Assembly: GCA_030649205.1 (NCBI GenBank)
Contig: JAUSGE010000029.1
Coordinates: forward strand, 1-51,599
From: a bacterium
GTDB lineage: Bacteria > Patescibacteriota > Patescibacteriia > Patescibacteriales > GWC2-42-12
DNA length: 51,599 nucleotides
Direction of reading: 5' to 3'
The position numbers and the translations under genes are program-made. Of the stretch, positions 18,005 through 51,599 are shown one piece after another. How positions within the stretch are numbered: the first letter of the stretch is position 1; each line of letters begins with the position of its first letter. A model generated the notes under the pieces. The model ran no database searches, was not told the DNA's origin, and saw nothing but the letters and a program-made list of their open reading frames with translations.

Positions 18005-19318
18005 ATGACAATAAACAATATCAAAACTAATCATAAAATAATACGAGGAGATTCAAGGCGGATGAAAGAATTGGCCAACGATTCTGTCCATTTAGTAATT
18101 ACATCGCCGCCATATTGGCAGCTAAAAGACTATGGTACTGAAAATCAAATTGGTTATCACGATAGTTATGAAAATTACATAAATAATCTAAATTTAGTTT
18201 GGCAAGAATGCTACCGGGTTTTAGAAAATGGCTGCCGTTTATGTATTAATATCGGAGATCAGTTTGCTCGTTCGGTTTATTATGGGCGATATAAGGTTAT
18301 ACCAATAAGAACAGAAATTATTAAATTTTGTGAAACTATTGGTTTTGATTATATGGGATCCATTATTTGGCAAAAATCTACCACCATGAACACGACAGGC
18401 GGAGCAACAATCATGGGATCATTTCCTTATCCTCGAAATGGGATCATTAAACTTGACTATGAATTTATTTTGATATTTAAGAAAAACGGGGAGCCACAAA
18501 AATTAAATAAAGAATTAAAAGAATTATCAAAACTAACCAAGGAAGAATGGAATTTATATTTTCAGGGGCACTGGCATTTTAACGGAGTAAGGCAAGATGA
18601 CCATATTGCAATGTTCCCCGAAGAATTGCCAAAAAGATTGATAAAAATGTTCTCTTTCGTCGGCGATACAATAGTTGATCCATTTGTGGGCAGTGGCACA
18701 ACATTATTGGCTGCAAAAAATTTAAGCCGAAATTCTGTTGGTTATGAAATAAATCCGAAATTTATAAATACAATCAAACAAAAATTAGAAGTTAACACTA
18801 ACAAAATGTTTGATAATTCAACTGCGAACTTTATAGATCAAGGCAATACAAAAAGTGATTACAGCGAAGAAATTTCCAAATTGCTTTATATTTTTAAAGA
18901 CCCTATTAAACTTGATAAAAAAATAGACCTAAAAAAATTACAATTTGGATCGAAAATAGATGATAGCAAGACACAAAGAATAGATTTTTTTACCGTAAAA
19001 GAAATAATAGATCCGAAAACGATTAAATTAAACAACGATTTAGTTGTTAAATTATTGGGTATAAAAATTAATCCTGAAAAAAGCGAGGACGCTAAAAAAT
19101 ATTTATTAAATAAAACCAACAAACAAAAAGTTTTTTTAAAATTTGATAACTTAAAATACGATAAAGAAAACAATTTATTGTGTTATTTATATTTACAAAA
19201 TAAAACTTTTATTAACGCTCATTTAATTAAAGAAGGATATGTTTTTGTCAATAATGAAATGGATTACAAATGTAAAGAAAAATTTATTAATTTATCTCAA
19301 AATAATTATGAAAAATAA
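18005..19318 (+). CDS. Type II DNA methyltransferase (beta-class N4-C/N6-A amino-MTase) fused to a C-terminal staphylococcal-nuclease-like OB domain
   Basis: Motif IV VITSPPYW lies near the N-terminus and motif I FVGSGTTLLAA downstream (PF01555-type order). The C-terminal LLGIKINPEK...CYLYLQNKTFINAHLIKEGYV is SNase-like. The region is clearly more AT-rich than its flanks. Confidence 0.8.
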   Translation: MTINNIKTNHKIIRGDSRRMKELANDSVHLVITSPPYWQLKDYGTENQIGYHDSYENYINNLNLVWQECYRVLENGCRLCINIGDQFARSVYYGRYKVIPIRTEIIKFCETIGFDYMGSIIWQKSTTMNTTGGATIMGSFPYPRNGIIKLDYEFILIFKKNGEPQKLNKELKELSKLTKEEWNLYFQGHWHFNGVRQDDHIAMFPEELPKRLIKMFSFVGDTIVDPFVGSGTTLLAAKNLSRNSVGYEINPKFINTIKQKLEVNTNKMFDNSTANFIDQGNTKSDYSEEISKLLYIFKDPIKLDKKIDLKKLQFGSKIDDSKTQRIDFFTVKEIIDPKTIKLNNDLVVKLLGIKINPEKSEDAKKYLLNKTNKQKVFLKFDNLKYDKENNLLCYLYLQNKTFINAHLIKEGYVFVNNEMDYKCKEKFINLSQNNYEK

Positions 19319-20006
19319 AACATCAAAGAAATTTTCAGCCGATTTCGGCAAAAAGGAAAAGGTGTTAAATTATGCTTGCCAAACTTATCAATTGTCCCGA
19401 CCCAATAAAGTCGGTGCGGTAATGGCATTAATAAGAGAATGCCAACCCAAGACAATAGACGAATGGGAAAAATGGTATTTTGAAAAAGCATTTACTGAAA
19501 GCAAGGAACCCATAAAGGTAACACAAGAAATTTTGAAAGAATTGGGCGAGCGCTTGCATGAAAAAATTACCGAGGTTGTCATACCAGAATGGCAAGCCGC
19601 TTTCATCGAATTATCGCTACAAGATTGCAAAGATTATATTTATAACCTGACAATAAATCGTACTTACGATGGTTTTATTCGTGAAAAATCTGTTGTCAAC
19701 GATGGATTAGCTAAACATTTTCCAGAAGTAAAATTTATTGAAAGCGACAACGACCTTGATCATGCTGGAGATATAGATTATTTAGGATTTGTAGACGAAA
19801 AAGCTTTCGGAATACAAATCAAACCGATTACTGCAAAAGCAAATTTTGGTAATTATTCCGTATCCGAAAGAATGAAAAGGAACTTTCTTGATTTTGAAAA
19901 AAAATATCAAGGCAAGGTATTTATTGTTTTTAGTTTAGACGGAGAGATTGGAAATAAAGAAGTTATAAAGGAGATTGAAACAGAAATAAAGAGACTAAAA
20001 AAATAA
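19308..20006 (+). CDS. Putative type II restriction endonuclease (PD-(D/E)xK-like), translationally coupled to the methyltransferase
   Basis: The ATG at 19308 overlaps the MTase stop (19316-19318) by 11 nt. HAGDIDYLGFVDEKAFGIQIKP fits D-x(n)-(E/Q)-x-K. The track ORF start at 19239 lies inside the MTase gene. Confidence 0.5.
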   Translation: MKNKTSKKFSADFGKKEKVLNYACQTYQLSRPNKVGAVMALIRECQPKTIDEWEKWYFEKAFTESKEPIKVTQEILKELGERLHEKITEVVIPEWQAAFIELSLQDCKDYIYNLTINRTYDGFIREKSVVNDGLAKHFPEVKFIESDNDLDHAGDIDYLGFVDEKAFGIQIKPITAKANFGNYSVSERMKRNFLDFEKKYQGKVFIVFSLDGEIGNKEVIKEIETEIKRLKK

Positions 20007-22811: not shown

Positions 22812-22991
22812 TGTCATTGCGAGGAGCTGCCTTTAGCCCCGTGCTTGACACGGGGGACGAAGCAATTTCCGGTTAAGAGCCACGTTCGTGAGATTGTCAT
22901 GGCTACGCCAGATCTCGCGTAGCGATTGGCTTCGCTCCTTTCCCGCCTCGGCTTCGCCGTTAGGCGAGACGGGCAGTCGCTCGCAATGACA
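22812..22991. repeat. Composite 180-nt family A palindromic element filling the nusA-hppA spacer
   Basis: It starts with tgtcattgcgag and ends with ctcgcaatgaca. Internal modules are gacgaagcaat and gggcagtcgctcgc. The track ORF 22814..22996 is its translation. Confidence 0.85.
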
Positions 22992-33582: not shown

Positions 33583-34140
33583 ATGTTAGTAATTATAATT
33601 TATACTCAAAATGTGCTTAAAAAAATTTGTTTAATTACTGTTCTATTTTTTGCGTTTCTTATAACTGCTCGTCACGCTAAAGCTGATAGCAATGCTATCT
33701 GCGACTGCGACGGAAATACTAGTTGGGTAACTAATTGCAGTACTGACAACTGCCCTGATGTGTGCTCTTGCACATACTCGCCAAATTCTAACATAAGTGG
33801 TAATGGAGCTGTTGCACCCAACATTAGCGGGCCTGGAGCAAGCGGCGCCCCCGGTCAACCGGTCCAACTCACCAACCCCCTGACCGGCAACGCCACCAGC
33901 AAAGACATTCCCACTCTGCTCGGCAACATCATCCAATACGCCATGGGCATCATCGGCTCGCTGGCTTTGGTGATGTTTATTTTCGGCGGCGCGACTTGGA
34001 TGCTGTCGGCCGGCAACCAGGAGCGGGTAACCAAGGGCAAAAATATTATTATCTGGGCGGCCCTGGGCCTGGCCATGATTTTCACGGCCTACGCTTTGGT
34101 CAGATTCCTGATTGAAACTCTGGGCAAGTCGGGCGGCTGA
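33583..34140 (+). CDS. VirB2/TrbC-like T4SS-pilin family protein with a Cys-rich, G/P/N-rich mature N-terminus
   Basis: The C-terminal module FGGATWMLSAGNQERVTKGKNIIIWAALGLAMIFTAYALV matches the other ten paralogs. There are 8 Cys in ~35 aa after the signal peptide (AICDCDGNTSWVTNCSTDNCPDVCSCT). The start may instead be the GTG at 33613. Confidence 0.7.
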   Translation: MLVIIIYTQNVLKKICLITVLFFAFLITARHAKADSNAICDCDGNTSWVTNCSTDNCPDVCSCTYSPNSNISGNGAVAPNISGPGASGAPGQPVQLTNPLTGNATSKDIPTLLGNIIQYAMGIIGSLALVMFIFGGATWMLSAGNQERVTKGKNIIIWAALGLAMIFTAYALVRFLIETLGKSGG

Positions 34141-34150
34141 CAACTCGCAA

Positions 34151-34601
34151 CTCATAGCTCATAACCCGTAACCCAAATTCAAAAAACTTCCCTAAGGAAG
34201 TTTTTATTTTATCTTGCTTATTATTCCCCAAACCATGCCGCCGATATCATCCGCTAATTTTGATAATAAGTCATAGTCATCCTGCTTTAAATAATTTTCC
34301 GATAGAGCAAAATAGATTAAATACTTTGTTTCTTTTAACGAGCCATACGATATTTCTAAAAAATTTTTATATACTTTGCAATTATCGCCTTTCCTTCTGG
34401 CAAAACCCTCTATGTAATTTAAAATAATTGACAAGGCCGCTCTTCTTAATTGAGATGTAAGCCCATATAATTCGTCTCTGGGAAAATTTCTGCTGGCTTT
34501 ATATACGGATTTCACATACTGATGCATCTTTAATTTAAGTTCATCATGATATCCCATAAAATAGAGTTATGAGTTGCGGGTTACGGGTTACGAGCTATGA
34601 G
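34151..34601. other. Inverted-repeat-bounded cassette carrying the four-helix-bundle gene
   Basis: The left arm ctcatagctcataacccgtaaccc (34151-34174) matches the reverse complement of 34578-34601 at 23/24 positions. Confidence 0.7.
34204..34557 (-). CDS. Four-helix-bundle protein (23S rRNA intervening-sequence protein family, TIGR02436-like)
   Basis: FPRDELYGLTSQLRRAALSIILNYIEGFARR...ISYGSLKETKYLIYFAL is the family signature from memory. 117 aa. Confidence 0.8.
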   Translation of the reverse strand: MGYHDELKLKMHQYVKSVYKASRNFPRDELYGLTSQLRRAALSIILNYIEGFARRKGDNCKVYKNFLEISYGSLKETKYLIYFALSENYLKQDDYDLLSKLADDIGGMVWGIISKIK

Positions 34602-37669: not shown

Positions 37670-37784
37670 TGTCATTGCGAGCGACCGAAGGGAGCGCGGC
37701 AATCTCACGGACAATTAATTTTAGAAAAAGTTCGATGTTTGTGAGATTGCTTCGTCGCCCGAGTACAGGCTCCTCGCAATGACA
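37670..37784. repeat. Full-length family A palindromic element (115 nt)
   Basis: tgtcattgcgagcgaccgaagggagcgcggcaatctcac ... gtgagattgcttcgtcgcccgagtacaggctcctcgcaatgaca. Confidence 0.9.
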
Positions 37785-37790
37785 ATCTCG

Positions 37791-38222
37791 CTAGGTCGGT
37801 ATAGTCCCGGTAGTCGCCCCAATCAATTGGTTGATGACAAAATTAGCCAGGGCAAAAGACGCTAAAATAATCACTAAGCCGATAACGCCGGCGATTAAAA
37901 TCTTCTTGGCCGCGGCCACATTTTCTTCATTGCCGCCGGCCGTCATCCAGCGAAAACCGGCGTAAAGAATTAATATAACCGCGATAATTCCCAAAAATCC
38001 CAGGGCAATATTGATTATCTTCACCGCCAGCAGGCGAGGATCATTATCGTTGACCCCGCCCAGAGGCCCGTTGTTGATCTCGTTGCGCACGCCGTTCCCC
38101 CAAATTTGATCCAAATTCGTGGCCGCCAAAATCGGCGCCGGCGAAGCAACGGCCAAGGCCCAGCCCAAAACCAATAAAATCATTGGCAGGGCAATAATCG
38201 TTTTATGCCTTTTTTTTCTCAT
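37791..38222 (-). CDS. VirB2/TrbC-like T4SS-pilin family protein
   Basis: Signal peptide, then YAGFRWMTAGGNEENVAAAKKILIAGVIGLVIILASFALANFV. Confidence 0.75.
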   Translation of the reverse strand: MRKKRHKTIIALPMILLVLGWALAVASPAPILAATNLDQIWGNGVRNEINNGPLGGVNDNDPRLLAVKIINIALGFLGIIAVILILYAGFRWMTAGGNEENVAAAKKILIAGVIGLVIILASFALANFVINQLIGATTGTIPT

Positions 38223-38251: not shown

Positions 38252-38647
38252 TTATTCCATGCCAGTCGTGGCCTTAAAAATCTGGCTAATCACAAAATTA
38301 GCCAGCGCGTAGGAAGCTAAAATAATCACCAAGCCGATAACGCCGGCGATTAAAATCTTCTTGGCCGCGGCCACGTTTTCTTCATTGCCGCCGGCCGTCA
38401 TCCAGCGAAAACCGGCGTAAAGAATTAAAACCACGGCTATAACGCCTAAAAAGCCTAAAGCTATGTTAATAATGTCAATAATTGTGAACCTAATATCCCG
38501 CGGCGCGCCTGATTGGTAGGCCTGGCCAACCTGGTTCAATCCTCCGGTTTGAACTTTTTCCAAAATGGTTTCCGCTCTGGCCTGAAGCGGCAACCCGGAC
38601 AATAATATCATTGCCGCTAACGCAACAGCTAAGTTATGCTTAAGCAT
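38252..38647 (-). CDS. VirB2/TrbC-like T4SS-pilin family protein
   Basis: Signal peptide, then YAGFRWMTAGGNEENVAAAKKILIAGVIGLVIILASYALANFV. A 98-nt tract is 97/98 identical to the downstream paralog. Confidence 0.75.
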   Translation of the reverse strand: MLKHNLAVALAAMILLSGLPLQARAETILEKVQTGGLNQVGQAYQSGAPRDIRFTIIDIINIALGFLGVIAVVLILYAGFRWMTAGGNEENVAAAKKILIAGVIGLVIILASYALANFVISQIFKATTGME

Positions 38648-46517: not shown

Positions 46518-47081
46518 TTATTGCTGTAAAACCTGAATTTTAGCTATCTTAACACCAAAATTTATTGCGTCAGGTTTTTCCAGCATCCACACGTCAACCC
46601 TGTTGGAAAATCTTCTATTCATTCTATCGCGCACTACAAACACTTTGTCGCCGAATAACTCTGGTATCCTAACCTTTGCGCCGAAAGGCAAAAAATTAGC
46701 CGCGATTGTATCTTCTATTCCATGATTACAAACGTTAAAATTGTTGGCCGTAATGCATGGACTGTCATCAGTTTGGCCTGGGTCTGAATTGTAGGCTGTA
46801 ACTACAAAACGGTTTGACCACCTGATAGCATCGCCGTTTTCCGGCAATTTTCCATTAAATTCTGCCATATTTGTTATTACAGCCTGATTAACACCGTTTT
46901 GCGCGTCAGCCACTATTCCTTGATCATGGCCTTGATTAGTTTTTTCTGCGATTTGATCAGCTAAAGAAGGCAGGGGAAATAGTATAAACTCAAAAAACAA
47001 AGCCGCAATTAAAATAATAATTATTTTTTTGGCTTGTTTTAGCTTAATTATTTTATTGTGGTTTTTTCTTAAAGCTTCCAT
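46518..47081 (-). CDS. Secreted 3D-domain (MltA/RlpA-like, cell-wall-active) protein
   Basis: N-terminal TM/signal. VTAYNSDPGQTDDSPCITAN...GAKVRIPELFGDKVFVVRDRMNRRFSNRVDVWM (conserved Asp triad context). Confidence 0.7.
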   Translation of the reverse strand: MEALRKNHNKIIKLKQAKKIIIILIAALFFEFILFPLPSLADQIAEKTNQGHDQGIVADAQNGVNQAVITNMAEFNGKLPENGDAIRWSNRFVVTAYNSDPGQTDDSPCITANNFNVCNHGIEDTIAANFLPFGAKVRIPELFGDKVFVVRDRMNRRFSNRVDVWMLEKPDAINFGVKIAKIQVLQQ

Positions 47082-47318: not shown

Positions 47319-47320
47319 AT

Positions 47321-47444
47321 GCTCGGTCTGAAAAAATTGTTTTTCCTGCTTAGACAAAATTTGGGCGATTTTTGTAAAAAGTATTTTTTACAAAAATCGC
47401 TACAATTTTGTATGCGCGATAAAAACAACTTTTTCAGACCAAGC
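47321..47444. mobile_element. MITE: internally deleted derivative of the IS at 35488-36659 (both terminal repeats, no transposase)
   Basis: gctcggtctgaaaaaattgtttttcctgcttagacaaaatttgggcgattttt matches the IS right end (reverse complement). aaaaatcgctacaattttgtatgcgcgataaaaacaactttttcagaccaagc matches the IS left end (reverse complement). Confidence 0.85.
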
Positions 47445-47456
47445 AAAGCATCTATC

Positions 47457-47499
47457 TGTCATTGCGAGGGAGCGCTAGCGACCGAAGCAATCTCACGAA
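47457..47499. repeat. Family A left half-element
   Basis: tgtcattgcgagggagcgctagcgaccgaagcaatctcacgaa. Confidence 0.85.
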
Positions 47500-47531
47500 T
47501 TAGTTGTCATAACAAAAAAGGAGGATTTATC

Positions 47532-47999
47532 ATGAAATCAAGAACTTTCGCAGTATTATTAGTGTTGGCATCGGTAACATTATTTACCGGTTGCGCCGCT
47601 TACTTCGGCAACGAGGCACAATATAACAAAGGTGATTGGTACCTCTTCGCCGACTCCAGGGAAGTCGCCCACATTAAAAAAGACAAACTGGCGTTCAATA
47701 AATTGGAGGCCGAGCCAGTGAAAACCAATACAGTGAACGGCGTGTCGCAGGGCTACGAAGGGCTGGTTGCCAACCTAAGCAACAATAACCGCTATAATTT
47801 TAAACTCTTCGGGCCAGAAACCAAAAGTTATTTACTTGGCCCGGGTGAACGAGCCACCGACTACCTTATACCTGGAAAATATGTTTGTATTGTCTACCAG
47901 GGAAGTTATCAGGTAGGTTCATGGTCGTTCCAGGTTGGACCGCAACAGTCCATCTTCATGAATGAAAAACACCATTGGTATATTTACACCGACAGATGA
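47532..47999 (+). CDS. Lipoprotein of unknown function
   Basis: The ATG at 47532 has AAAGGAGGA upstream. Signal peptide with lipobox: MKSRTFAVLLVLASVTLFTGC. The track start at 47319 lies in MITE/repeat DNA. Confidence 0.65.
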   Translation: MKSRTFAVLLVLASVTLFTGCAAYFGNEAQYNKGDWYLFADSREVAHIKKDKLAFNKLEAEPVKTNTVNGVSQGYEGLVANLSNNNRYNFKLFGPETKSYLLGPGERATDYLIPGKYVCIVYQGSYQVGSWSFQVGPQQSIFMNEKHHWYIYTDR

Positions 48000-48073: not shown

Positions 48074-48508
48074 TTAACTTCCGCCAACTATCGTTCCCGT
48101 ACTATTAACTCCCGATAAACTCTGAAACACGAAATAAGTGATGGCATAGGCGGCAAGAATAATGATCAGGCCGATGATCGCCCGCGTTAACGTATTTTTG
48201 GCTTTAGTAACCTTTTCATCATCGCCTTGCGCCGTCATCCAGTTATAACCGGCGTAAATGATTAACACTAAAAAAATTATGCCCAATAAACTTAAAAATA
48301 CGCTAACCACATCTTTGATCAAGTTTGGTAAATCGGCGGCCGGATCATTTACTGGAGTTCCCCAGCCGGTTGTTCCCGCGCTATCCAACTGGGTTTGTAA
48401 ATCATCCGCGGCGCTTGCTCGGCTAAACTGAACGGTGAAAACAAAACTAACAGCCATGGCCGCTATAAATAAAAAGCTAAAAATTAATTTTGTGTATGTT
48501 TTTATCAT
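48074..48508 (-). CDS. VirB2/TrbC-like T4SS-pilin family protein (array member 8, last in transcription order)
   Basis: The start is the ATG at 48508 (MIKTYTKLIF...); the track N-terminus MARLLRRDYAARNDK is repeat DNA. YAGYNWMTAQGDDEKVTKAKNTLTRAIIGLIIILAAYAITYFV. Confidence 0.75.
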   Translation of the reverse strand: MIKTYTKLIFSFLFIAAMAVSFVFTVQFSRASAADDLQTQLDSAGTTGWGTPVNDPAADLPNLIKDVVSVFLSLLGIIFLVLIIYAGYNWMTAQGDDEKVTKAKNTLTRAIIGLIIILAAYAITYFVFQSLSGVNSTGTIVGGS

Positions 48509-48519
48509 AACTTTACTTT

Positions 48520-48628
48520 TGTCATTGCGAGCCGCGTAATCGCGGCGAAGCAATCTCGCCAATAGCGTCTCTTGACCAAACTCGCCATCCGTTAGATTGC
48601 TTCGTCGCTGGCGCTCCTCGCAATGACA
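48520..48628. repeat. Full-length family A palindromic element (109 nt) between two pilin genes
   Basis: tgtcattgcgagccgcgtaatcgcggcgaagcaatctcgcc ... gattgcttcgtcgctggcgctcctcgcaatgaca. Confidence 0.9.
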
Positions 48629-48634
48629 TCAAAG

Positions 48635-49042
48635 TCATTGCAGAATGCCCGTGCCGGTAACCAGTTTATCAAACACCCAAGCGCTGATGGCATAGGCGGC
48701 CACAGTGATAATTATACCGATAATAGCGCGCGTCAGCGTGTCCTTGGCCTTGGTAACTTTTTCCTCATCGCCCTGCGCCGTCATCCAGTTATAGCCGGCA
48801 TAAATTACATAAATTAAAAATATCACGCCTAACAAGCCTAAAAACGCCTGGATAACCAAGCCGATGATACTGGCAATATCGTTTTCCCCCGGACTATACG
48901 CGGCATAAGGAGCAATACTGCCGCTTTCACCAGTATTTTTTAAATTTTCTAAAGCCGAGCTGTCGGCCGCGGCCAGATAAGGCGCGGCTATTAAAGCCAG
49001 CAATAGACTTGCCACAAAAATTTGTTTAATATTTTTTTTCAT
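48635..49042 (-). CDS. VirB2/TrbC-like T4SS-pilin family protein (array member 7)
   Basis: Signal peptide. YAGYNWMTAQGDEEKVTKAKDTLTRAIIGIIITVAAYAISAWV. Confidence 0.8.
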   Translation of the reverse strand: MKKNIKQIFVASLLLALIAAPYLAAADSSALENLKNTGESGSIAPYAAYSPGENDIASIIGLVIQAFLGLLGVIFLIYVIYAGYNWMTAQGDEEKVTKAKDTLTRAIIGIIITVAAYAISAWVFDKLVTGTGILQ

Positions 49043-49044
49043 AA

Positions 49045-49497
49045 TTATTCGAAGGCGGAGTTTAGATTTTCGGGATTGCTTCCGCCTTTTAAAGTTCCTT
49101 GCTCCAATTTGGACATGATAAAGACGCTGATGGCGTAAGCGGCGATAATAATAATCGCGCCGATAATCGCTCGGTTAAGCGTATCCTTGGCTTTAGTAAC
49201 TTTTTCCTCATCGCCTCGGGCCGTCATCCAGTTATAGCCGGCGTAGAGCATGTAAATTAACAGTATCACGCCGATTAAGCCTAAAAAAGCGCTGATGCCG
49301 ATTTGAATAACGGAAAAGAGAGTATTGCCAGTGCCGGTGTCATAACCTCCGGCATCGCCTGTTTTTTGCGCTTGATTATAAATATTTTGATTAACGTCCG
49401 GCTTTAGCGGTCCGGCGGCCGAACAAAAATTTACCGCGGCTAGCGAGAGGATGAACAAAATAATTACCAGGTTAATTTTTTTATGCTTACTAGACAT
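49045..49497 (-). CDS. VirB2/TrbC-like T4SS-pilin family protein (array member 6)
   Basis: Signal peptide. YAGYNWMTARGDEEKVTKAKDTLNRAIIGAIIIIAAYAISVFI. There is a 2-nt gap to the next gene. Confidence 0.8.
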   Translation of the reverse strand: MSSKHKKINLVIILFILSLAAVNFCSAAGPLKPDVNQNIYNQAQKTGDAGGYDTGTGNTLFSVIQIGISAFLGLIGVILLIYMLYAGYNWMTARGDEEKVTKAKDTLNRAIIGAIIIIAAYAISVFIMSKLEQGTLKGGSNPENLNSAFE

Positions 49498-49567
49498 AAT
49501 TATCGCGACCTATATGATTGATTAGTTAATCTTAATTTTTACTAAATTTCCTGTAGATTTGCGGGTG

Positions 49568-49942
49568 TTAAAACAATGCGCTGAAAATAAAAGCCCAGAT
49601 AGCGTAAGAGCCGATCACAATAATAATACCTATAATGGCGCGCGTCAGAGTATCCTTGGCCTTGGTAACTTTTTCTTCTTCGCCTCGGGCCGTCATCCAG
49701 TTATAGCCGGCGTAGAGCATGAGTATTAAAAATATCGTACCAATCAAGCCAAGAGCGCCCTGAACTACCGCGCCGATGACATTAGACAAGCCAATCTTAT
49801 CCACTGACTCATAAGGCCCGTTATTACTTCCAATATTTTGCAATTTATCCAAAGCGTCAAAGGCCCAGGCCGAATGCGGCAAACTAGCAATGGCCGTCAT
49901 CAGCCAAACAAACAAACTCGCATTTAGGTATTTTTTAGACAT
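49568..49942 (-). CDS. VirB2/TrbC-like T4SS-pilin family protein (array member 5)
   Basis: Signal peptide. YAGYNWMTARGEEEKVTKAKDTLTRAIIGIIIVIGSYAIWAFI. Confidence 0.8.
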   Translation of the reverse strand: MSKKYLNASLFVWLMTAIASLPHSAWAFDALDKLQNIGSNNGPYESVDKIGLSNVIGAVVQGALGLIGTIFLILMLYAGYNWMTARGEEEKVTKAKDTLTRAIIGIIIVIGSYAIWAFIFSALF

Positions 49943-49947
49943 GATTA

Positions 49948-50367
49948 TTATTTTAATACCTGACTGCCCAAAGCGTTGAGCGCATACCAGCTGATAGCGT
50001 AAGCGGCCAGAACTATTACCAAACCGATAATGGCGTTAATCAAAGTATTTTTAGCCTTTTCCACCATTTCATCATTGCCCCGCGCCATCATCCAAGTATA
50101 ACCTGCGTAAATCGCCAACACCAAAAAAATTACGCCAACTAATTCTATTACTGTCCTAATCACTAAACTAATCATGCTATCCGGACTGGCCAGACTAGCG
50201 TCAGTTTTATAGCCAGCCCCTTTTTCGCCGGCTACATTATTTAGAGGTTCTTTAAAAGCATTGCCTAAATTATCCGCATAGCAGAAAGCTGAATATAAAA
50301 AAAATGATGACAAAATCAGAGTCAAGGCAAAAACTTTTTTAAATCGCGCGTTATTAATTATTTCCAT
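49948..50367 (-). CDS. VirB2/TrbC-like T4SS-pilin family protein (array member 4)
   Basis: Signal peptide. YAGYTWMMARGNDEMVEKAKNTLINAIIGLVIVLAAYAISWYA. It overlaps the upstream gene by 10 nt. Confidence 0.8.
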   Translation of the reverse strand: MEIINNARFKKVFALTLILSSFFLYSAFCYADNLGNAFKEPLNNVAGEKGAGYKTDASLASPDSMISLVIRTVIELVGVIFLVLAIYAGYTWMMARGNDEMVEKAKNTLINAIIGLVIVLAAYAISWYALNALGSQVLK

Positions 50368-50756
50368 AAAGTTGCCGCCAATTGGGTTAGAGCGTAAGCG
50401 CTTAAAACTATGGCCAGGCCGATAGCCGCGCCATAAATAATCTCCCTGGCCTTAGTCACTTCTTGCTCATTGCCGCGCGCCATCAGCCAAATAATGCCGG
50501 CGTAAATTATTAAACCTAAAAAAATTATTCCTAAAAATGAGATAACCAATTTTAAGACTGAACCGATCCTTGAATACAGGCTGGCGGTTATATTATTATT
50601 TTGGTTAACGGCTGGGTACCCGATCGCATTAGCTGAATTATCCAAGCCTTGCTGGAAAGTTTTGGTGGATTCGGCCAAAACAGGAAGCGATAGAGTGTAA
50701 AAAAATATATTACTTAAAAGCGCTAAACCGAGAATTAAAAATAAAAGTTTCTTCAT
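50358..50756 (-). CDS. VirB2/TrbC-like T4SS-pilin family protein (array member 3)
   Basis: Signal peptide. YAGIIWLMARGNEQEVTKAREIIYGAAIGLAIVLSAYALTQLA. Confidence 0.75.
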   Translation of the reverse strand: MKKLLFLILGLALLSNIFFYTLSLPVLAESTKTFQQGLDNSANAIGYPAVNQNNNITASLYSRIGSVLKLVISFLGIIFLGLIIYAGIIWLMARGNEQEVTKAREIIYGAAIGLAIVLSAYALTQLAATLWK

Positions 50757-50764
50757 AATTACTG

Positions 50765-51157
50765 CTAAGTGGCCGTAAAAGTCGCTCCAATATAAGAAGT
50801 TATCACATAGGCCATTAAGATAATAATCAAACCAATGGCCGCGGCAATAATTACGTCTTTGGCTTTAGTAACGGTTTGTTCATTACCCATGGAAAACATC
50901 CACAAATAGCCGCCGTAAATCATTAAAACAAAGAAGACAACTCCCAAAAAAGCCAAGGCCGCGCCCACGACTTTGCCAATGGCTAAAGAAGGGTCCTGAA
51001 TGGCTGGCAAATTACCGCCATAGCCTTTGGTGGCCGTAGTATTTAAACCGCCCAGAGCATCATCAGTCCCTGCCGCTAAACTAATCGGCGCCATTATTAA
51101 AAATGATAAAACTATTATCAGGACGGAAAGAATTAATTTAGAGTGTTTGATAAACAT
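50765..51157 (-). CDS. VirB2/TrbC-like T4SS-pilin family protein (array member 2)
   Basis: Signal peptide. YGGYLWMFSMGNEQTVTKAKDVIIAAAIGLIIILMAYVITSYI. Confidence 0.75.
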   Translation of the reverse strand: MFIKHSKLILSVLIIVLSFLIMAPISLAAGTDDALGGLNTTATKGYGGNLPAIQDPSLAIGKVVGAALAFLGVVFFVLMIYGGYLWMFSMGNEQTVTKAKDVIIAAAIGLIIILMAYVITSYIGATFTAT

Positions 51158-51167
51158 AAACTCTATC

Positions 51168-51267
51168 TGTCATTGCGAGGAGGCCGTAATCGGCCGACGA
51201 AGCAATCTCACGTACTCGGAGCTTAATCAGAGATTGCTTCGCCCCGAGTACGGGGCCCGCAATGACA
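51168..51267. repeat. Full-length family A palindromic element (100 nt) between two pilin genes
   Basis: tgtcattgcgaggaggccgtaatcggccgacgaagcaatctcacgtactcgg ... gagattgcttcgccccgagtacggggcccgcaatgaca. Confidence 0.9.
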
Positions 51268-51370
51268 ATCTGATTTTCCACTGCTCTAAGCGCAAAAATT
51301 TATCTTACGCTTACGGCAGTGGCCCCGGAAACGGCCGGGAACCACTTTTTTTACTAATATTAAGGTTATT

Positions 51371-51599
51371 TTAGGTATTTGCGTTGGTCGCGATAAGCAG
51401 TTGACCCATGACAAAAGTCGCGATGGCATAGGCCGCCAAGATGATTACCAGGCCGATGATACCGGCCACAATCAATTTTTTAGCCTCGGCCACTTTGTCC
51501 TCGCCGCCCCCGGCCGTCATCCATTTAAAGCCGCCCAGCAGAATAATCACTACCGCGATAATGCCTAAAAAGCCTAAAATCACGTTAATGACTTGAGCG
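51371..51599 (-). CDS. VirB2/TrbC-like T4SS-pilin family protein (array member 1); the 5' end runs off the window
   Basis: The frame stays open to the window edge (...AQVINVILGFLGIIAV). LGGFKWMTAGGGEDKVAEAKKLIVAGIIGLVIILAAYAIATFV is the same subfamily as 37791/38252. Confidence 0.75.
   Translation of the reverse strand, partial: AQVINVILGFLGIIAVVIILLGGFKWMTAGGGEDKVAEAKKLIVAGIIGLVIILAAYAIATFVMGQLLIATNANT

What the first reader, a model, noticed from the sequence alone, without database searches (positions are those of the whole stretch)
48074..51599. Eight back-to-back VirB2/TrbC-like mini-pilin paralogs with a fixed C-terminal two-helix module and variable exposed N-termini, with no secretion machinery in sight
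Eight consecutive minus-strand genes of 124-150 aa share one architecture.
- Each has a signal peptide, then a 30-60 aa segment that is essentially unalignable between paralogs.
- Each ends in a strongly conserved module: TM helix, Y(A/G)G(Y/F)xWMxAxG(D/N)(E/D)ExV(T/E)KAK loop, then TM helix AIIGxxIxxxAYAI.
- This is the VirB2/TrbC pilin topology, and the CPR-specific T4SS_pilin family as far as I can recall it.
- Genes are packed at -10 to +8 nt. The exceptions are a 70-nt gap and two spacers occupied by full-length family A palindromes.
- With 33583, 37791 and 38252, the window holds eleven paralogs.
- I see no VirB4/VirD4/VirB6/VirB10-like gene, no prepilin peptidase and no relaxase anywhere in 51.6 kb.

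A conserved membrane-embedded core with a diversified exposed head, in so many tandem copies, suggests one of two things. It could be a heteropolymeric surface filament, or a repertoire of alternative surface subunits for host-cell attachment in an episymbiont. Neither has been characterised mechanistically.
Basis: partly seen in the sequence, partly recalled or inferred. Interest (0 to 1): 0.8.

Follow-up and report, generated by a model that had tools for sequence, protein, structure and literature searches.

The report
Tandem T4SS pilin genes, Patescibacteria
The window ends in a real tandem array of eight small pilin-like genes of a type IV secretion system. Such arrays are already published for these ultrasmall bacteria, so this is a new example, with some new detail on its fixed gene order and on a conserved RNA structure inside it.

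Summary
There are seven complete minus-strand genes of 124-150 aa and an eighth cut by the contig end. All have a signal peptide, a variable segment and a conserved two-helix module. All score above the Pfam T4SS_pilin (PF18895) threshold. Three dispersed paralogs make eleven. No VirB4, VirD4, VirB6 or relaxase domain is detectable in the 51.6 kb.

The window is the whole contig, from a Falkowbacteria-like (class ABY1) Patescibacterium.

The phenomenon is published. Pilin arrays of 2-11 genes occur in 383 Patescibacteria assemblies, and one is essential in Southlakia epibionticum.

New points found here:
- The eight genes are 1:1 collinear orthologs of arrays in related genomes, next to PBP1A-dnaN-dnaA, so this is an ancient ordered set and not a fast-varying cassette.
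- dN/dS is below 1 everywhere.
- Four of five related MAGs carrying the array are listed as having VirB4 elsewhere.
- PF18895 is not CPR-specific. A Bacillaceae megaplasmid has it at the VirB2 position of a VirB6/VirB3/VirB4/hydrolase cluster.
- Homology to classical VirB2/TrbC is not demonstrable.
- A covariation-supported structured RNA with no Rfam match sits between gene 1 and gene 2.

Best reading: subunits for a T4SS encoded elsewhere, possibly one major plus seven accessory.

The parts
51371..51599 (-). Pilin gene 1 of the array. Only its C-terminal 75 codons are present, because the contig end cuts it. It belongs to the most conserved orthogroup and is the candidate major subunit.
   Evidence: PF18895 at 35.5 bits. 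It is 80% identical to the position-1 gene of L002. The position-1 orthogroup averages 78% full-length identity, against 47-62% for positions 2-8.
51266..51368 (-). Conserved structured RNA motif between gene 1 and gene 2. It consists of a palindromic hairpin, a GC hairpin and a long stem enclosing a covarying hairpin.
   Evidence: Covariance model R1 scores 82 bits here, E 1e-20, and this is the only hit in the window. There are 23 distinct copies in related arrays, always after gene 1. In the structure, 88.8% of cells are paired, against 37-47% in the slid controls. 18 of 29 pairs show double-sided changes. No Rfam family matches.
51168..51267 (.).
   Evidence: Relatives carry a variant of the same element at the same position.
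50765..51157 (-). Pilin gene 2 (130 aa).
   Evidence: PF18895 at 32.7 bits. Its ortholog is L002 7742-8128, 60% identical.
50358..50756 (-). Pilin gene 3 (132 aa).
   Evidence: PF18895 at 29.2 bits. Its ortholog is L002 8185-8607, 47% identical.
49948..50367 (-). Pilin gene 4 (139 aa). It overlaps gene 3 by 10 nt.
   Evidence: PF18895 at 38.4 bits. Its ortholog is L002 8592-9047, 55% identical.
49568..49942 (-). Pilin gene 5 (124 aa).
   Evidence: PF18895 at 32.5 bits. Its ortholog is L002 9129-9503, 61% identical.
49045..49497 (-). Pilin gene 6 (150 aa, with a Gly-rich C-terminal tail).
   Evidence: PF18895 at 34.6 bits. Its ortholog is L002 9520-9972, 56% identical. dN/dS against L115 is 0.056 in the core and 0.34 in the N-variable region.
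48635..49042 (-). Pilin gene 7 (135 aa). This is the protein that was modelled.
   Evidence: PF18895 at 38.4 bits. The AF2 model has pLDDT 82, with hairpin helices at 56-88 and 93-130. There are 633 homologs, all PF18895. dN/dS is 0.037 in the core and 0.20 in the N-variable region.
48520..48628 (.). Palindromic repeat element in the gene 7 - gene 8 spacer. This insertion is lineage-specific.
   Evidence: Relatives have only 5-12 nt at this junction.
48074..48508 (-). Pilin gene 8 (144 aa from the ATG at 48508).
   Evidence: PF18895 at 45.5 bits and NF045849 at 47 bits. Its ortholog is L002 10393-10842, 60% identical.
38252..38647 (-). Dispersed paralog of the position-1 type.
   Evidence: PF18895 at 35.3 bits. 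It clusters with the position-1 orthogroup.
37791..38222 (-). Dispersed paralog of the position-1 type.
   Evidence: PF18895 at 35.0 bits. It clusters with the position-1 orthogroup. Syntenic pilin genes lie beyond the flippase gene in L001, L002 and L005.
33583..34140 (+). Divergent dispersed paralog (185 aa) with a Cys-rich insertion in the exposed N-terminal segment.
   Evidence: PF18895 at 50.2 bits.

Best explanation
**What it is.** The array encodes the VirB2-position subunits of the monoderm-type type IV secretion system that most Patescibacteria carry.

**Proposed mechanism.**
1. Each product is exported by Sec, and its signal peptide is removed at an AxA-like site (inferred from sequence).
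2. The mature protein of about 95-120 aa sits in the cytoplasmic membrane as a helical hairpin. Both termini face outside, and the conserved charged turn (G-D/N-E-E-x-V-x-K-A-K) faces the cytoplasm (predicted).
3. A VirB4-driven machine encoded elsewhere in the genome extracts these subunits and polymerises them. The result is a surface filament or an envelope-spanning conduit. The conserved hairpin forms the wall, and the variable N- and C-terminal tails form the exposed surface (inferred by analogy and gene neighbourhood, not shown).

**Nature of the set.** The eight genes are not a fast-changing repertoire. They are an ancient, order-conserved set of distinct orthologs kept next to the replication origin.

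**Roles within the set.** Gene 1 is the most conserved. A conserved structured RNA separates it from genes 2-8. This suggests that gene 1 is the major subunit and the other seven are lower-abundance accessory subunits of one heteropolymeric structure. This last step is the most speculative.
For: **Family.** All 11 paralogs are above the PF18895 threshold. All hit NCBIfam NF045849 'pilin-like conjugal transfer protein', three of them above its cut-off.

**T4SS link.**
- A homolog (hhalign Prob 96.5%, E 9e-10 over the whole two-helix module) sits in a Bacillaceae gene cluster. The order there is PF18895, PF18895, TrbL/VirB6-like, TraL/PrgI-like, a 274-aa gene without Pfam match, VirB4-like ATPase, NlpC/P60+M23 hydrolase.
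- A series of predicted pilins inside the Southlakia epibionticum T4SS cluster is essential (PMC10633639; PMC12857230).
- Pilin arrays of 2-11 genes occur in 383 Patescibacteria assemblies (PMC12102498).

**Machinery elsewhere.** Four of five related ABY1 MAGs that carry the syntenic array are listed as VirB4-positive.

**Topology.** Three hydrophobic segments and AxA-like sites. The AF2 hairpin model has pLDDT 82.

**Ancient ordered set.**
- Best hits to L002 are 1:1 and collinear.
- The neighbour-joining tree groups genes by position across four genomes.
- The same PBP1A-dnaN-dnaA synteny is seen in L001/L002, L004, L005 and in 6-9-gene arrays in about a dozen species.
- Orthologs are more alike than paralogs in every region, including the N-variable region (38% against 19%).
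- dN/dS is 0.04-0.06 in the core and 0.20-0.34 in the N-variable region.
- Paralog cores are only 62-80% identical at nucleotide level, so there are no conversion tracts.

**Major/accessory idea.** Position 1 is the most conserved. A covariation-supported RNA structure follows it, and follows both leading genes in 9-gene arrays.
Against: - No T4SS component lies within 48 kb on one side in the window.
- None lies within about 20 kb on the origin side in a syntenic relative. The functional link to a T4SS is therefore indirect for this lineage.
- The window's own genome could not be checked for VirB4.
- Homology to structurally solved conjugative pilins is not demonstrable: PF04956 is sub-threshold, TrwL gives Prob 5.9%, no PDB sequence hit was found, and Foldseek is uninformative.
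- No T4SS-dependent pilus has been seen in any Patescibacterium or Gram-positive bacterium (reviews).
- The major/accessory assignment rests only on conservation and on an RNA element of unknown function.
- No expression data exist.
Confidence: 0.5

Rival explanations
1. The proteins are membrane-embedded parts of the T4SS translocon, not subunits of an extracellular filament. They would line or gate the channel in the cytoplasmic membrane and cell wall, as may be the case for their homologs in Gram-positive and Mycoplasma conjugation systems, where no pilus is known.
For: - The closest demonstrable relatives are in monoderm conjugation clusters (NF045849, Mycoplasma ICE family; Pontibacillus cluster).
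- No similarity to solved pilus subunits was found.
Against: - Eight to eleven paralogs with diversified extracytoplasmic tails fit a surface-exposed structure better than a channel lining.
- A cleavable signal peptide with both termini outside is the VirB2 layout.
- Reviewers of the field favour a pilus-like structure, though without data.
Confidence: 0.2
2. The array is a repertoire of alternative surface subunits. One or a few would be expressed at a time to match different host strains or to evade host or phage recognition, as proposed for the virB2 paralog families of Anaplasma and Bartonella.
For: - The exposed N- and C-terminal segments are the most divergent parts (19% and 15% paralog identity).
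- They evolve faster than the core (dN/dS 0.20-0.34 against 0.04-0.06).
- The published survey suggests this reading (PMC12102498).
Against: - Gene order and identity of each position are conserved across species.
- dN/dS is below 1 in the variable region.
- There are no gene-conversion tracts.
- All seven complete genes are intact and tightly packed, with gaps of -10 to +8 nt, as in a co-transcribed unit.
- No invertible or phase-variable elements were seen.
Confidence: 0.15
3. The proteins are T4SS-independent small envelope proteins. They might organise the membrane or cell wall, and would be retained next to PBP1A and the origin for that reason. On this view the 'pilin' name is only an annotation by association.
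For: - The array is syntenic with PBP1A and with a conserved secreted neighbour that may bind cell wall.
- No T4SS gene lies within tens of kb.
- One related MAG with the array is listed as VirB4-negative, though at 619 kb it is probably incomplete.
Against: - Family members lie inside T4SS clusters in a Firmicute and in Saccharibacteria.
- Four of five related MAGs have VirB4.
Confidence: 0.1
4. The proteins are holin-like or small-solute channel proteins.
For: They are small proteins with two transmembrane helices. The truncated copy has a sub-threshold Holin_9 hit at E 0.08.
Against: - They have a cleavable signal peptide.
- There are eight tandem copies.
- There is no endolysin or phage context.
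- All score above threshold for PF18895.
Confidence: 0.02

Closest known systems
VirB2-like pilin arrays of Patescibacteria (Quinonero-Coronel et al. 2025, PMC12102498; the essential pilin series in the Southlakia epibionticum T4SS cluster, Wang et al. 2023, PMC10633639)
   Same: - Same Pfam family (PF18895).
- Tandem arrays of 2-11 divergent paralogs. The published within-array average is about 25% identity. Here it is 50% in the core and 19% in the N-variable region.
- Origin-proximal chromosomal location.
- No relaxase nearby.
   Different: - This array is physically detached from virB4: at least 48 kb on one side, and at least about 20 kb on the other side in relatives.
- It belongs to class ABY1, not to the Saccharimonadia or Microgenomatia where arrays were reported as most abundant.
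- The strict positional orthology and the intercistronic RNA motif do not appear in the passages of those papers that I read.
NCBIfam NF045849 'Mbov_0395 family pilin-like conjugal transfer protein' and PF18895 genes in Firmicute T4SS clusters (example: Pontibacillus sp. ALD_SL1 megaplasmid NZ_CP062975.1)
   Same: - Same two-helix module with the motif Y-[AS]-G-[YF]-x-[WY]-[MI]-T-[AS]-Q-G-D...A-K...G-[LI]...A-A-[YF] (hhalign Prob 96.5%).
- Signal peptide plus hairpin.
- Monoderm host.
   Different: - There are one or two copies, lying directly upstream of VirB6-, VirB3- and VirB4-like genes on a mobile element or megaplasmid.
- Here there are eight plus three chromosomal copies with no machinery nearby.
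Classical VirB2/TrbC/TraA conjugative pilins (Pfam PF04956; for example TrwL of R388, VirB2 of Agrobacterium, F-pilin)
   Same: - Sec signal peptide.
- Two hydrophobic helices joined by a short charged loop.
- Small size.
- Gene position ahead of VirB3/VirB4 in the Firmicute homolog cluster.
   Different: - No significant sequence or profile similarity could be shown.
- The fold search was uninformative.
- Classical systems have one major pilin plus VirB5, not eight paralogs.
virB2 paralog clusters of Anaplasmataceae and Bartonella T4SSs (cited in PMC12102498; further details from general knowledge)
   Same: Several tandem VirB2 paralogs with divergent exposed parts, encoded apart from other T4SS operons in reduced genomes of host-dependent bacteria.
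   Different: - Those are diderm Alphaproteobacteria with true PF04956 VirB2.
- Variation there is linked to immune evasion in animals.
- Here the paralogs are old, order-conserved and under purifying selection.

Membership tests
Pfam PF18895 T4SS_pilin | Score at or above the curated gathering threshold (26.6 bits) across the 71-position model. | tested here: met
   All eight array proteins score 29.2-45.5 bits. The three dispersed paralogs score 35.0-50.2 bits.
Pfam PF18895 T4SS_pilin | Two hydrophobic helices joined by a short conserved charged turn, preceded by a signal peptide. | tested here: met
   The hydropathy scan shows three segments per complete protein. The AF2 model has helices 2-24, 56-88 and 93-130, with pLDDT 89-96 in the hairpin. 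The invariant columns are G72, G83, W86, G91, V96, A99 and G109.
Pfam PF18895 T4SS_pilin | Encoded in or with a type IV secretion system. | tested here: inconclusive
   - Not met on this contig.
- Not met within about 20 kb on the origin side in a syntenic relative.
- Four of five related MAGs are VirB4-positive in a published table.
- A homolog sits in a full T4SS cluster in a Firmicute.
- The window's own genome is not available.
NCBIfam NF045849 Mbov_0395 family pilin-like conjugal transfer protein | Score at or above the curated cut-off (40 bits). | tested here: inconclusive
   Three of the nine pilins scanned pass (47.0, 42.7 and 47.2 bits). The other six score 24-35 bits, with E 2e-5 to 6e-9. 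This indicates the same superfamily, not uniformly the same equivalog.
Classical VirB2/TrbC pilins (Pfam PF04956) | Score at or above the gathering threshold (27.9 bits). | tested here: not met
   The best score is 25.3 bits (E 1.8e-5). The others score 14.9-24.2 bits or give no hit. Unrelated membrane families score similarly, for example Cyt_bd_oxida_II at E 5.8e-5.
Classical VirB2/TrbC pilins (Pfam PF04956) | Profile similarity to a bona fide major pilin. | tested here: not met
   hhalign of the 74-sequence profile against R388 TrwL gives Prob 5.9%, aligning 23 columns of one helix only. The profile finds no pilin among PDB sequences. The template was a single sequence, so sensitivity was limited.
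Classical VirB2/TrbC pilins (Pfam PF04956) | Structural match to solved conjugative pilus subunits. | tested here: inconclusive
   The best Foldseek PDB hit has E 0.48. The top hits are generic helical hairpins such as ATP synthase c and CnrX, and no conjugative pilin is in the top 50. A two-helix hairpin carries too little information for this test.
Classical VirB2/TrbC pilins (Pfam PF04956) | Polymerised into an extracellular pilus by a VirB4-containing machine. Pilin processing, such as cyclisation or acetylation. | not testable with these tools
   This needs microscopy, proteomics or genetics.
Type IV pilus (T4P) pilins | Class III signal peptide with the G/(F,M)xxxE prepilin peptidase site and a single N-terminal hydrophobic helix. 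| tested here: not met
   The N-termini are Sec-type (basic, then hydrophobic, then AxA-like), and there are two further hydrophobic helices. No T4P Pfam family was hit.

The most novel reading that the evidence does not exclude
The eight order-conserved paralogs would be co-assembled into a single heteropolymeric T4SS filament or conduit of a cell-wall-bearing monoderm. Gene 1 would be the major subunit and genes 2-8 fixed-role accessory subunits. The conserved structured RNA after gene 1 would be a previously undescribed cis-acting element, such as a processing, stability or attenuation signal, that sets their stoichiometry. This would be the first multi-pilin T4SS polymer and a new RNA regulatory motif specific to it.
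Probability: 0.2. Interest if true: 0.75.

Novelty: new member of a known kind. Interest (0 to 1): 0.4.

Why it matters
Patescibacteria make up a large share of bacterial diversity and live attached to other microbes. The one genetic study available shows that their T4SS and its pilin series are essential. Nobody knows what the system transports or whether it builds a filament.

This window adds no new kind of system. It does show three useful things:
- In one class (ABY1) the pilin set is an ancient, fixed, eight-member ensemble kept beside the replication origin and apart from the machine.
- The family is shared with Gram-positive and Mycoplasma conjugation systems. This bears on whether the pilin came with the ancestral monoderm T4SS or was borrowed from elsewhere.
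- A conserved RNA structure sits inside the array.

These points give concrete, testable handles on subunit stoichiometry and regulation.

Tried and rejected
- **Looking beyond 51599.** This is impossible, because the window is the whole contig. Exact-sequence look-ups of two window pilins found no other record.
- **Searching for VirB4 near the array in relatives.** I found none within 10 kb either side of the array. I then walked 10 kb beyond YidC in the L002 contig and found only housekeeping genes.
- **Large ORFs near homologous arrays in other classes.** These were GyrA, PBP, SpoIID, SLT_2, M23 or H+-PPase proteins, not a Pfam-detectable VirB4.
- **Fold test.** The AF2 model is good, but Foldseek returns only generic hairpins. 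Profile and sequence searches of the PDB are empty.
- **Homology to R388 TrwL by hhalign.** Negative.
- **Plasmid collection tblastn.** One weak hit (E 0.2). It became informative only after a profile comparison.
- **Promoter and terminator scan of the array.** Counts do not differ from shuffles. No Shine-Dalgarno motifs lie upstream of the starts.
- **The conserved 187-aa neighbour (46518-47081).** There was no Pfam hit even at E 5 and no PDB hit. The single-sequence AF2 model is unusable, with pLDDT 44. The only lead is a weak NCBIfam hit to the C-terminus of EntB (E 0.009). My recollection that it resembles a 3D/DPBB cell-wall domain therefore remains untested.
- **Holin reading.** Rejected (see the rival explanations).
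- **Gene conversion between paralogs.** Rejected, because the cores are only 62-80% identical at nucleotide level.

Full report
**1. Observation**

The right end of the window holds seven complete minus-strand ORFs of 124-150 aa and an eighth that runs off the end at 51599.
- All eight score above the curated threshold of Pfam PF18895 'T4SS_pilin', at 29.2-45.5 bits against 26.6.
- An HMM built from them finds exactly eleven members among all six-frame ORFs of the window. The next-best ORF has E 0.045.
- The three extra members (33583-34140 +, 37791-38222 -, 38252-38647 -) also pass PF18895.
- Every complete protein has three hydrophobic segments and an AxA-like site around residue 25-32.
- The intergenic distances are 213, 8, -10, 5, 70, 2 and 126 nt.
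- The two long spacers contain a roughly 100-nt palindromic repeat. Its core GTCATTGCGAG occurs 15 times in the window against 0.5 expected.

So the description is accurate, with three corrections:
- The eighth gene is truncated. Only 75 codons are visible.
- The likely start of the last gene is the ATG at 48508, not the TTG at 48562 inside the repeat.
- The 'unalignable' segment is about 25-35 aa in the mature protein. It keeps a weak shared motif that AlphaFold2 models as a short helix.

**2. Context**

About 56 window ORFs were scanned against Pfam.
- They are chromosomal housekeeping genes: NusA, H+-PPase, trigger factor, SmpB, TrmD, S16, GreA, RluD-like, Gmk, TsaE, LspA, ROK kinase, a flippase plus a glycosyltransferase, and a restriction-modification pair.
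- Rfam adds a tmRNA and six tRNAs.
- No VirB4/TraG P-loop, AAA_10, DUF87, TrbL/VirB6 or relaxase domain is present.
- A VirB4 of the relevant type is detectable with these models, as the Firmicute control shows. The negative result is therefore meaningful.

The homology search shows that the window is the entire 51,599-bp contig, so nothing lies 'beyond 51599'. The best homologs come from Patescibacteria, Falkowbacteria and Parcubacteria-group MAGs. A published table assigns those MAGs to GTDB class ABY1.

**3. Related loci**

The same locus exists in several related genomes. The gene order is:

YidC-YidD-RnpA-L34 | DnaA-DnaN | PBP1A (about 980 aa) | 7-8 tandem pilin genes | two conserved small genes | DksA-type zinc finger | LspA | TsaE | L19 | Gmk | RluD | glycosyltransferase | flippase | further pilin genes.

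The right-hand part matches window 37.8-48 kb. The window array therefore most likely sits a few kb from dnaN-dnaA. Among the 29 loci fetched from species-representative genomes, about a dozen Falkowbacteria-like or Parcubacteria-group ones carry arrays of 6-9 genes, mostly beside a PBP1A-sized ORF.

Each window gene has a distinct best match in L002, and the order is the same. Identities are 47-61% over full length for genes 2-8 and 80% over the visible part of gene 1. A neighbour-joining tree of the arrays of four genomes groups genes by position, not by genome.

| Region | Ortholog identity | Paralog identity |
|---|---|---|
| Signal peptide | 42% | 25% |
| N-variable | 38% | 19% |
| Core | 73% | 50% |
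| C-tail | 38% | 15% |

Against the closest relative (L115, whose gene-7 product is 85% identical), dN/dS is 0.04-0.06 in the core and 0.20-0.34 in the N-variable segment. dS in that short segment is near saturation, so these values are rough. Paralog cores are only 62-80% identical at nucleotide level, so there has been no recent gene conversion.

Conclusion: this is an old, order-conserved ensemble under purifying selection. Its tails are relaxed but not diversifying.

**4. Where is the machine?**

- In a syntenic relative, the 10 kb beyond YidC hold only housekeeping genes.
- The array is therefore at least 48 kb from a Pfam-detectable T4SS ATPase on the window side, and at least about 20 kb on the origin side in relatives.
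- Table S1 of PMC12102498 lists four of the five related MAGs that carry this array as VirB4-positive: GW2011_GWC2_42_12, GW2011_GWE2_39_37, RIFCSPLOWO2_12_FULL_45_13 and CG23_combo_..._49_15. The fifth is VirB4-negative and is only 619 kb.
- The same paper finds the pilin gene near virB4 in 1,135 of 1,948 assemblies. It also reports that ABY1 T4SS loci tend to lie with comF/recG/radA.

A distal machine is therefore the expected situation, although I could not verify it for this genome.

**5. What the proteins are**

- The AF2 model built with a 74-sequence alignment has pLDDT 82. It shows a signal-peptide helix, a short helix, a coil and a long helical hairpin at 56-88 and 93-130.
- Foldseek against the PDB gives no significant match, only generic hairpins. 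The profile finds nothing among PDB sequences.
- PF04956 (TrbC/VirB2) stays below threshold, at E-values matched by unrelated membrane families.
- hhalign against the R388 major pilin TrwL is negative, with Prob 5.9%.
- By contrast, all nine paralogs scanned hit NCBIfam NF045849, 'Mbov_0395 family pilin-like conjugal transfer protein'. Three are above its cut-off.
- The only plasmid-collection hit is a Pontibacillus megaplasmid gene with that name. It aligns to the window family over the whole two-helix module, with hhalign Prob 96.5% and E 9e-10.
- That gene and a second PF18895 gene head a same-strand cluster: TrbL/VirB6-like (weak), TraL/PrgI (VirB3)-like (weak), a 274-aa gene without Pfam match, a VirB4-like ATPase, and an NlpC/P60+M23 hydrolase.

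So the family is not CPR-specific, and it occupies the VirB2 position of a monoderm T4SS cluster. This is the strongest evidence here for calling the window genes T4SS subunits. It also bears on the published question of whether Patescibacteria co-opted the pilin from another T4SS class.

**6. Prior knowledge**

- Wang et al. [quoted passage not shown]
- Quinonero-Coronel et al. 2025 reported 441 arrays of 2-11 VirB2-like genes in 383 assemblies. They noted origin proximity and proposed host-range versatility.
- A 2025 review discusses a possible pilus in these monoderms.
- The function of the T4SS remains unknown.

The finding is therefore a new member of a known kind.

**7. A by-product inside the coordinates**

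The 213-nt spacer after gene 1 contains more than the palindromic repeat. It also holds a conserved element of about 100 nt at 51266-51368, on the minus strand.
- A covariance model built from nine copies finds it once per related array, always after gene 1. In three 9-gene arrays it occurs twice, after each of the two leading genes. It occurs nowhere else in about 1 Mb of fetched loci, apart from weak antisense echoes.
- On 23 distinct copies, 88.8% of cells pair, against 37-47% when the partners are slid. 18 of 29 pairs have double-sided changes. There are 75 compensatory cells against 22.6 in shuffles, and 0 of 500 shuffles reach the observed value.
- Frequent G-U pairs point to the sense strand, the pilin mRNA strand.
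- An alternative helix between an upstream GUGG and the CCAC of the long stem is possible but weaker, at 64% paired.
- Rfam has no match.
- The position-1 orthogroup is the most conserved, at 78% against 47-62%. The dispersed paralogs 37791 and 38252 are of the same type.

I infer, without direct evidence, that gene 1 may be the major subunit and that the RNA element may set its expression relative to genes 2-8.

**8. Verdict**

The family and topology are right. 'CPR-specific', the implied novelty and the 'missing machinery' puzzle are not.
- The most likely mechanism is Sec export, membrane insertion as a hairpin, and extraction and polymerisation by a distally encoded monoderm-type T4SS. 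The product would be a heteropolymeric surface structure with diversified exterior tails.
- The main rivals are a purely membrane-embedded translocon role and an alternative-subunit repertoire.

Noticed in passing
window 51266-51368 (-); related copies include L005 7646-7750, L004 8110-8215, L092 701-805, L088 7015-7127 and L088 7657-7762: A conserved structured RNA motif of about 100 nt lies between pilin gene 1 and gene 2. It occurs once per array, or twice in 9-gene arrays. Covariation support is strong, and there is no Rfam match. It begins with an 18-bp perfect palindrome, CTTAATACCGGTATTAAG, which could alternatively be a DNA operator. That palindrome is degenerate in the window copy.
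   Followed up: partly
window 9024, 14543, 22813-22990, 25067, 25193, 26346, 30902, 37671-37783, 47458, 48520-48628, 51168-51267: This is a family of roughly 100-nt palindromic intergenic repeats with termini GTCATTGCGAG...CTCGCAATGAC. There are 15 core matches against 0.5 expected. Their translations create spurious ORF starts such as 'LLRRDYAARNDK'. Copies also occur in some related genomes, and a variant sits at the same gene 1 - gene 2 spacer in relatives.
   Followed up: partly
window 46518-47081 (-): A 187-aa secreted protein lies immediately downstream of the array. It is conserved at this position in L001/L002, L004 and L005. It has no Pfam or PDB match. The only hit is a weak NCBIfam match to the C-terminus of the cell wall-binding protein EntB (E 0.009). 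It might be a cell-wall-active partner of the array, but this is untested.
   Followed up: partly
window 47319-47999 (+) and 47320-47445: The listed 226-aa ORF starts inside a separate 126-nt near-perfect palindrome (arms 47320-47380 and 47385-47445). The real product probably starts at MKSRTF... and carries a lipoprotein-like signal (LFTGC). A 186-aa ORF is called at the equivalent position next to the array in relatives, but I did not compare the sequences.
   Followed up: no
window 33583-34140 (+): This divergent pilin paralog has an exposed N-terminal segment of about 75 aa that carries a Cys-rich insertion (CDCDGNTSWVTNCSTDNCPDVCSC). It has the highest PF18895 score in the window, at 50.2 bits.
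   Followed up: no
window 18005-20006 (+): This is a low-GC island (GC 0.30 against about 0.43). It holds an N6/N4 DNA methylase fused to a staphylococcal-nuclease-like domain, and an MjaI-type restriction endonuclease. It is probably a horizontally acquired restriction-modification system.
   Followed up: no
L005 5511-7082; L088 3811-5376; L089 4572-6170; L093 4446-6044; L096 5602-7158: In several relatives, an ORF of about 520-535 aa lies between PBP1A and the first pilin gene, on the same strand as the array. The two copies scanned (L005, L089) have no Pfam match. Whether the window's genome has it cannot be seen, because the contig ends.
   Followed up: no
L109 6500-11316; L110 5885-10406: Homologous 10-gene pilin arrays occur in Saccharibacteria MAGs. 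They are flanked by peptidoglycan-hydrolase-domain proteins: SpoIID upstream in both loci, and in L110 a 902-aa protein with an SLT_2 domain and an M23 peptidase downstream. None of the ORFs of 450 aa or more that were scanned there gave a Pfam VirB4 hit.
   Followed up: partly
L116 11776-21329 (Pontibacillus sp. ALD_SL1 megaplasmid NZ_CP062975.1): This is a monoderm T4SS cluster that begins with two tandem PF18895 genes. Published surveys state that Gram-positive T4SS classes lack VirB2-like genes, so this cluster and the NF045849 Mycoplasma-ICE family deserve a systematic look.
   Followed up: partly
window 34204-34557 (-): A free-standing gene for a 23S rRNA intervening-sequence protein (PF05635, related to bAvd) lies between a pilin paralog and a ROK kinase gene.
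   Followed up: no
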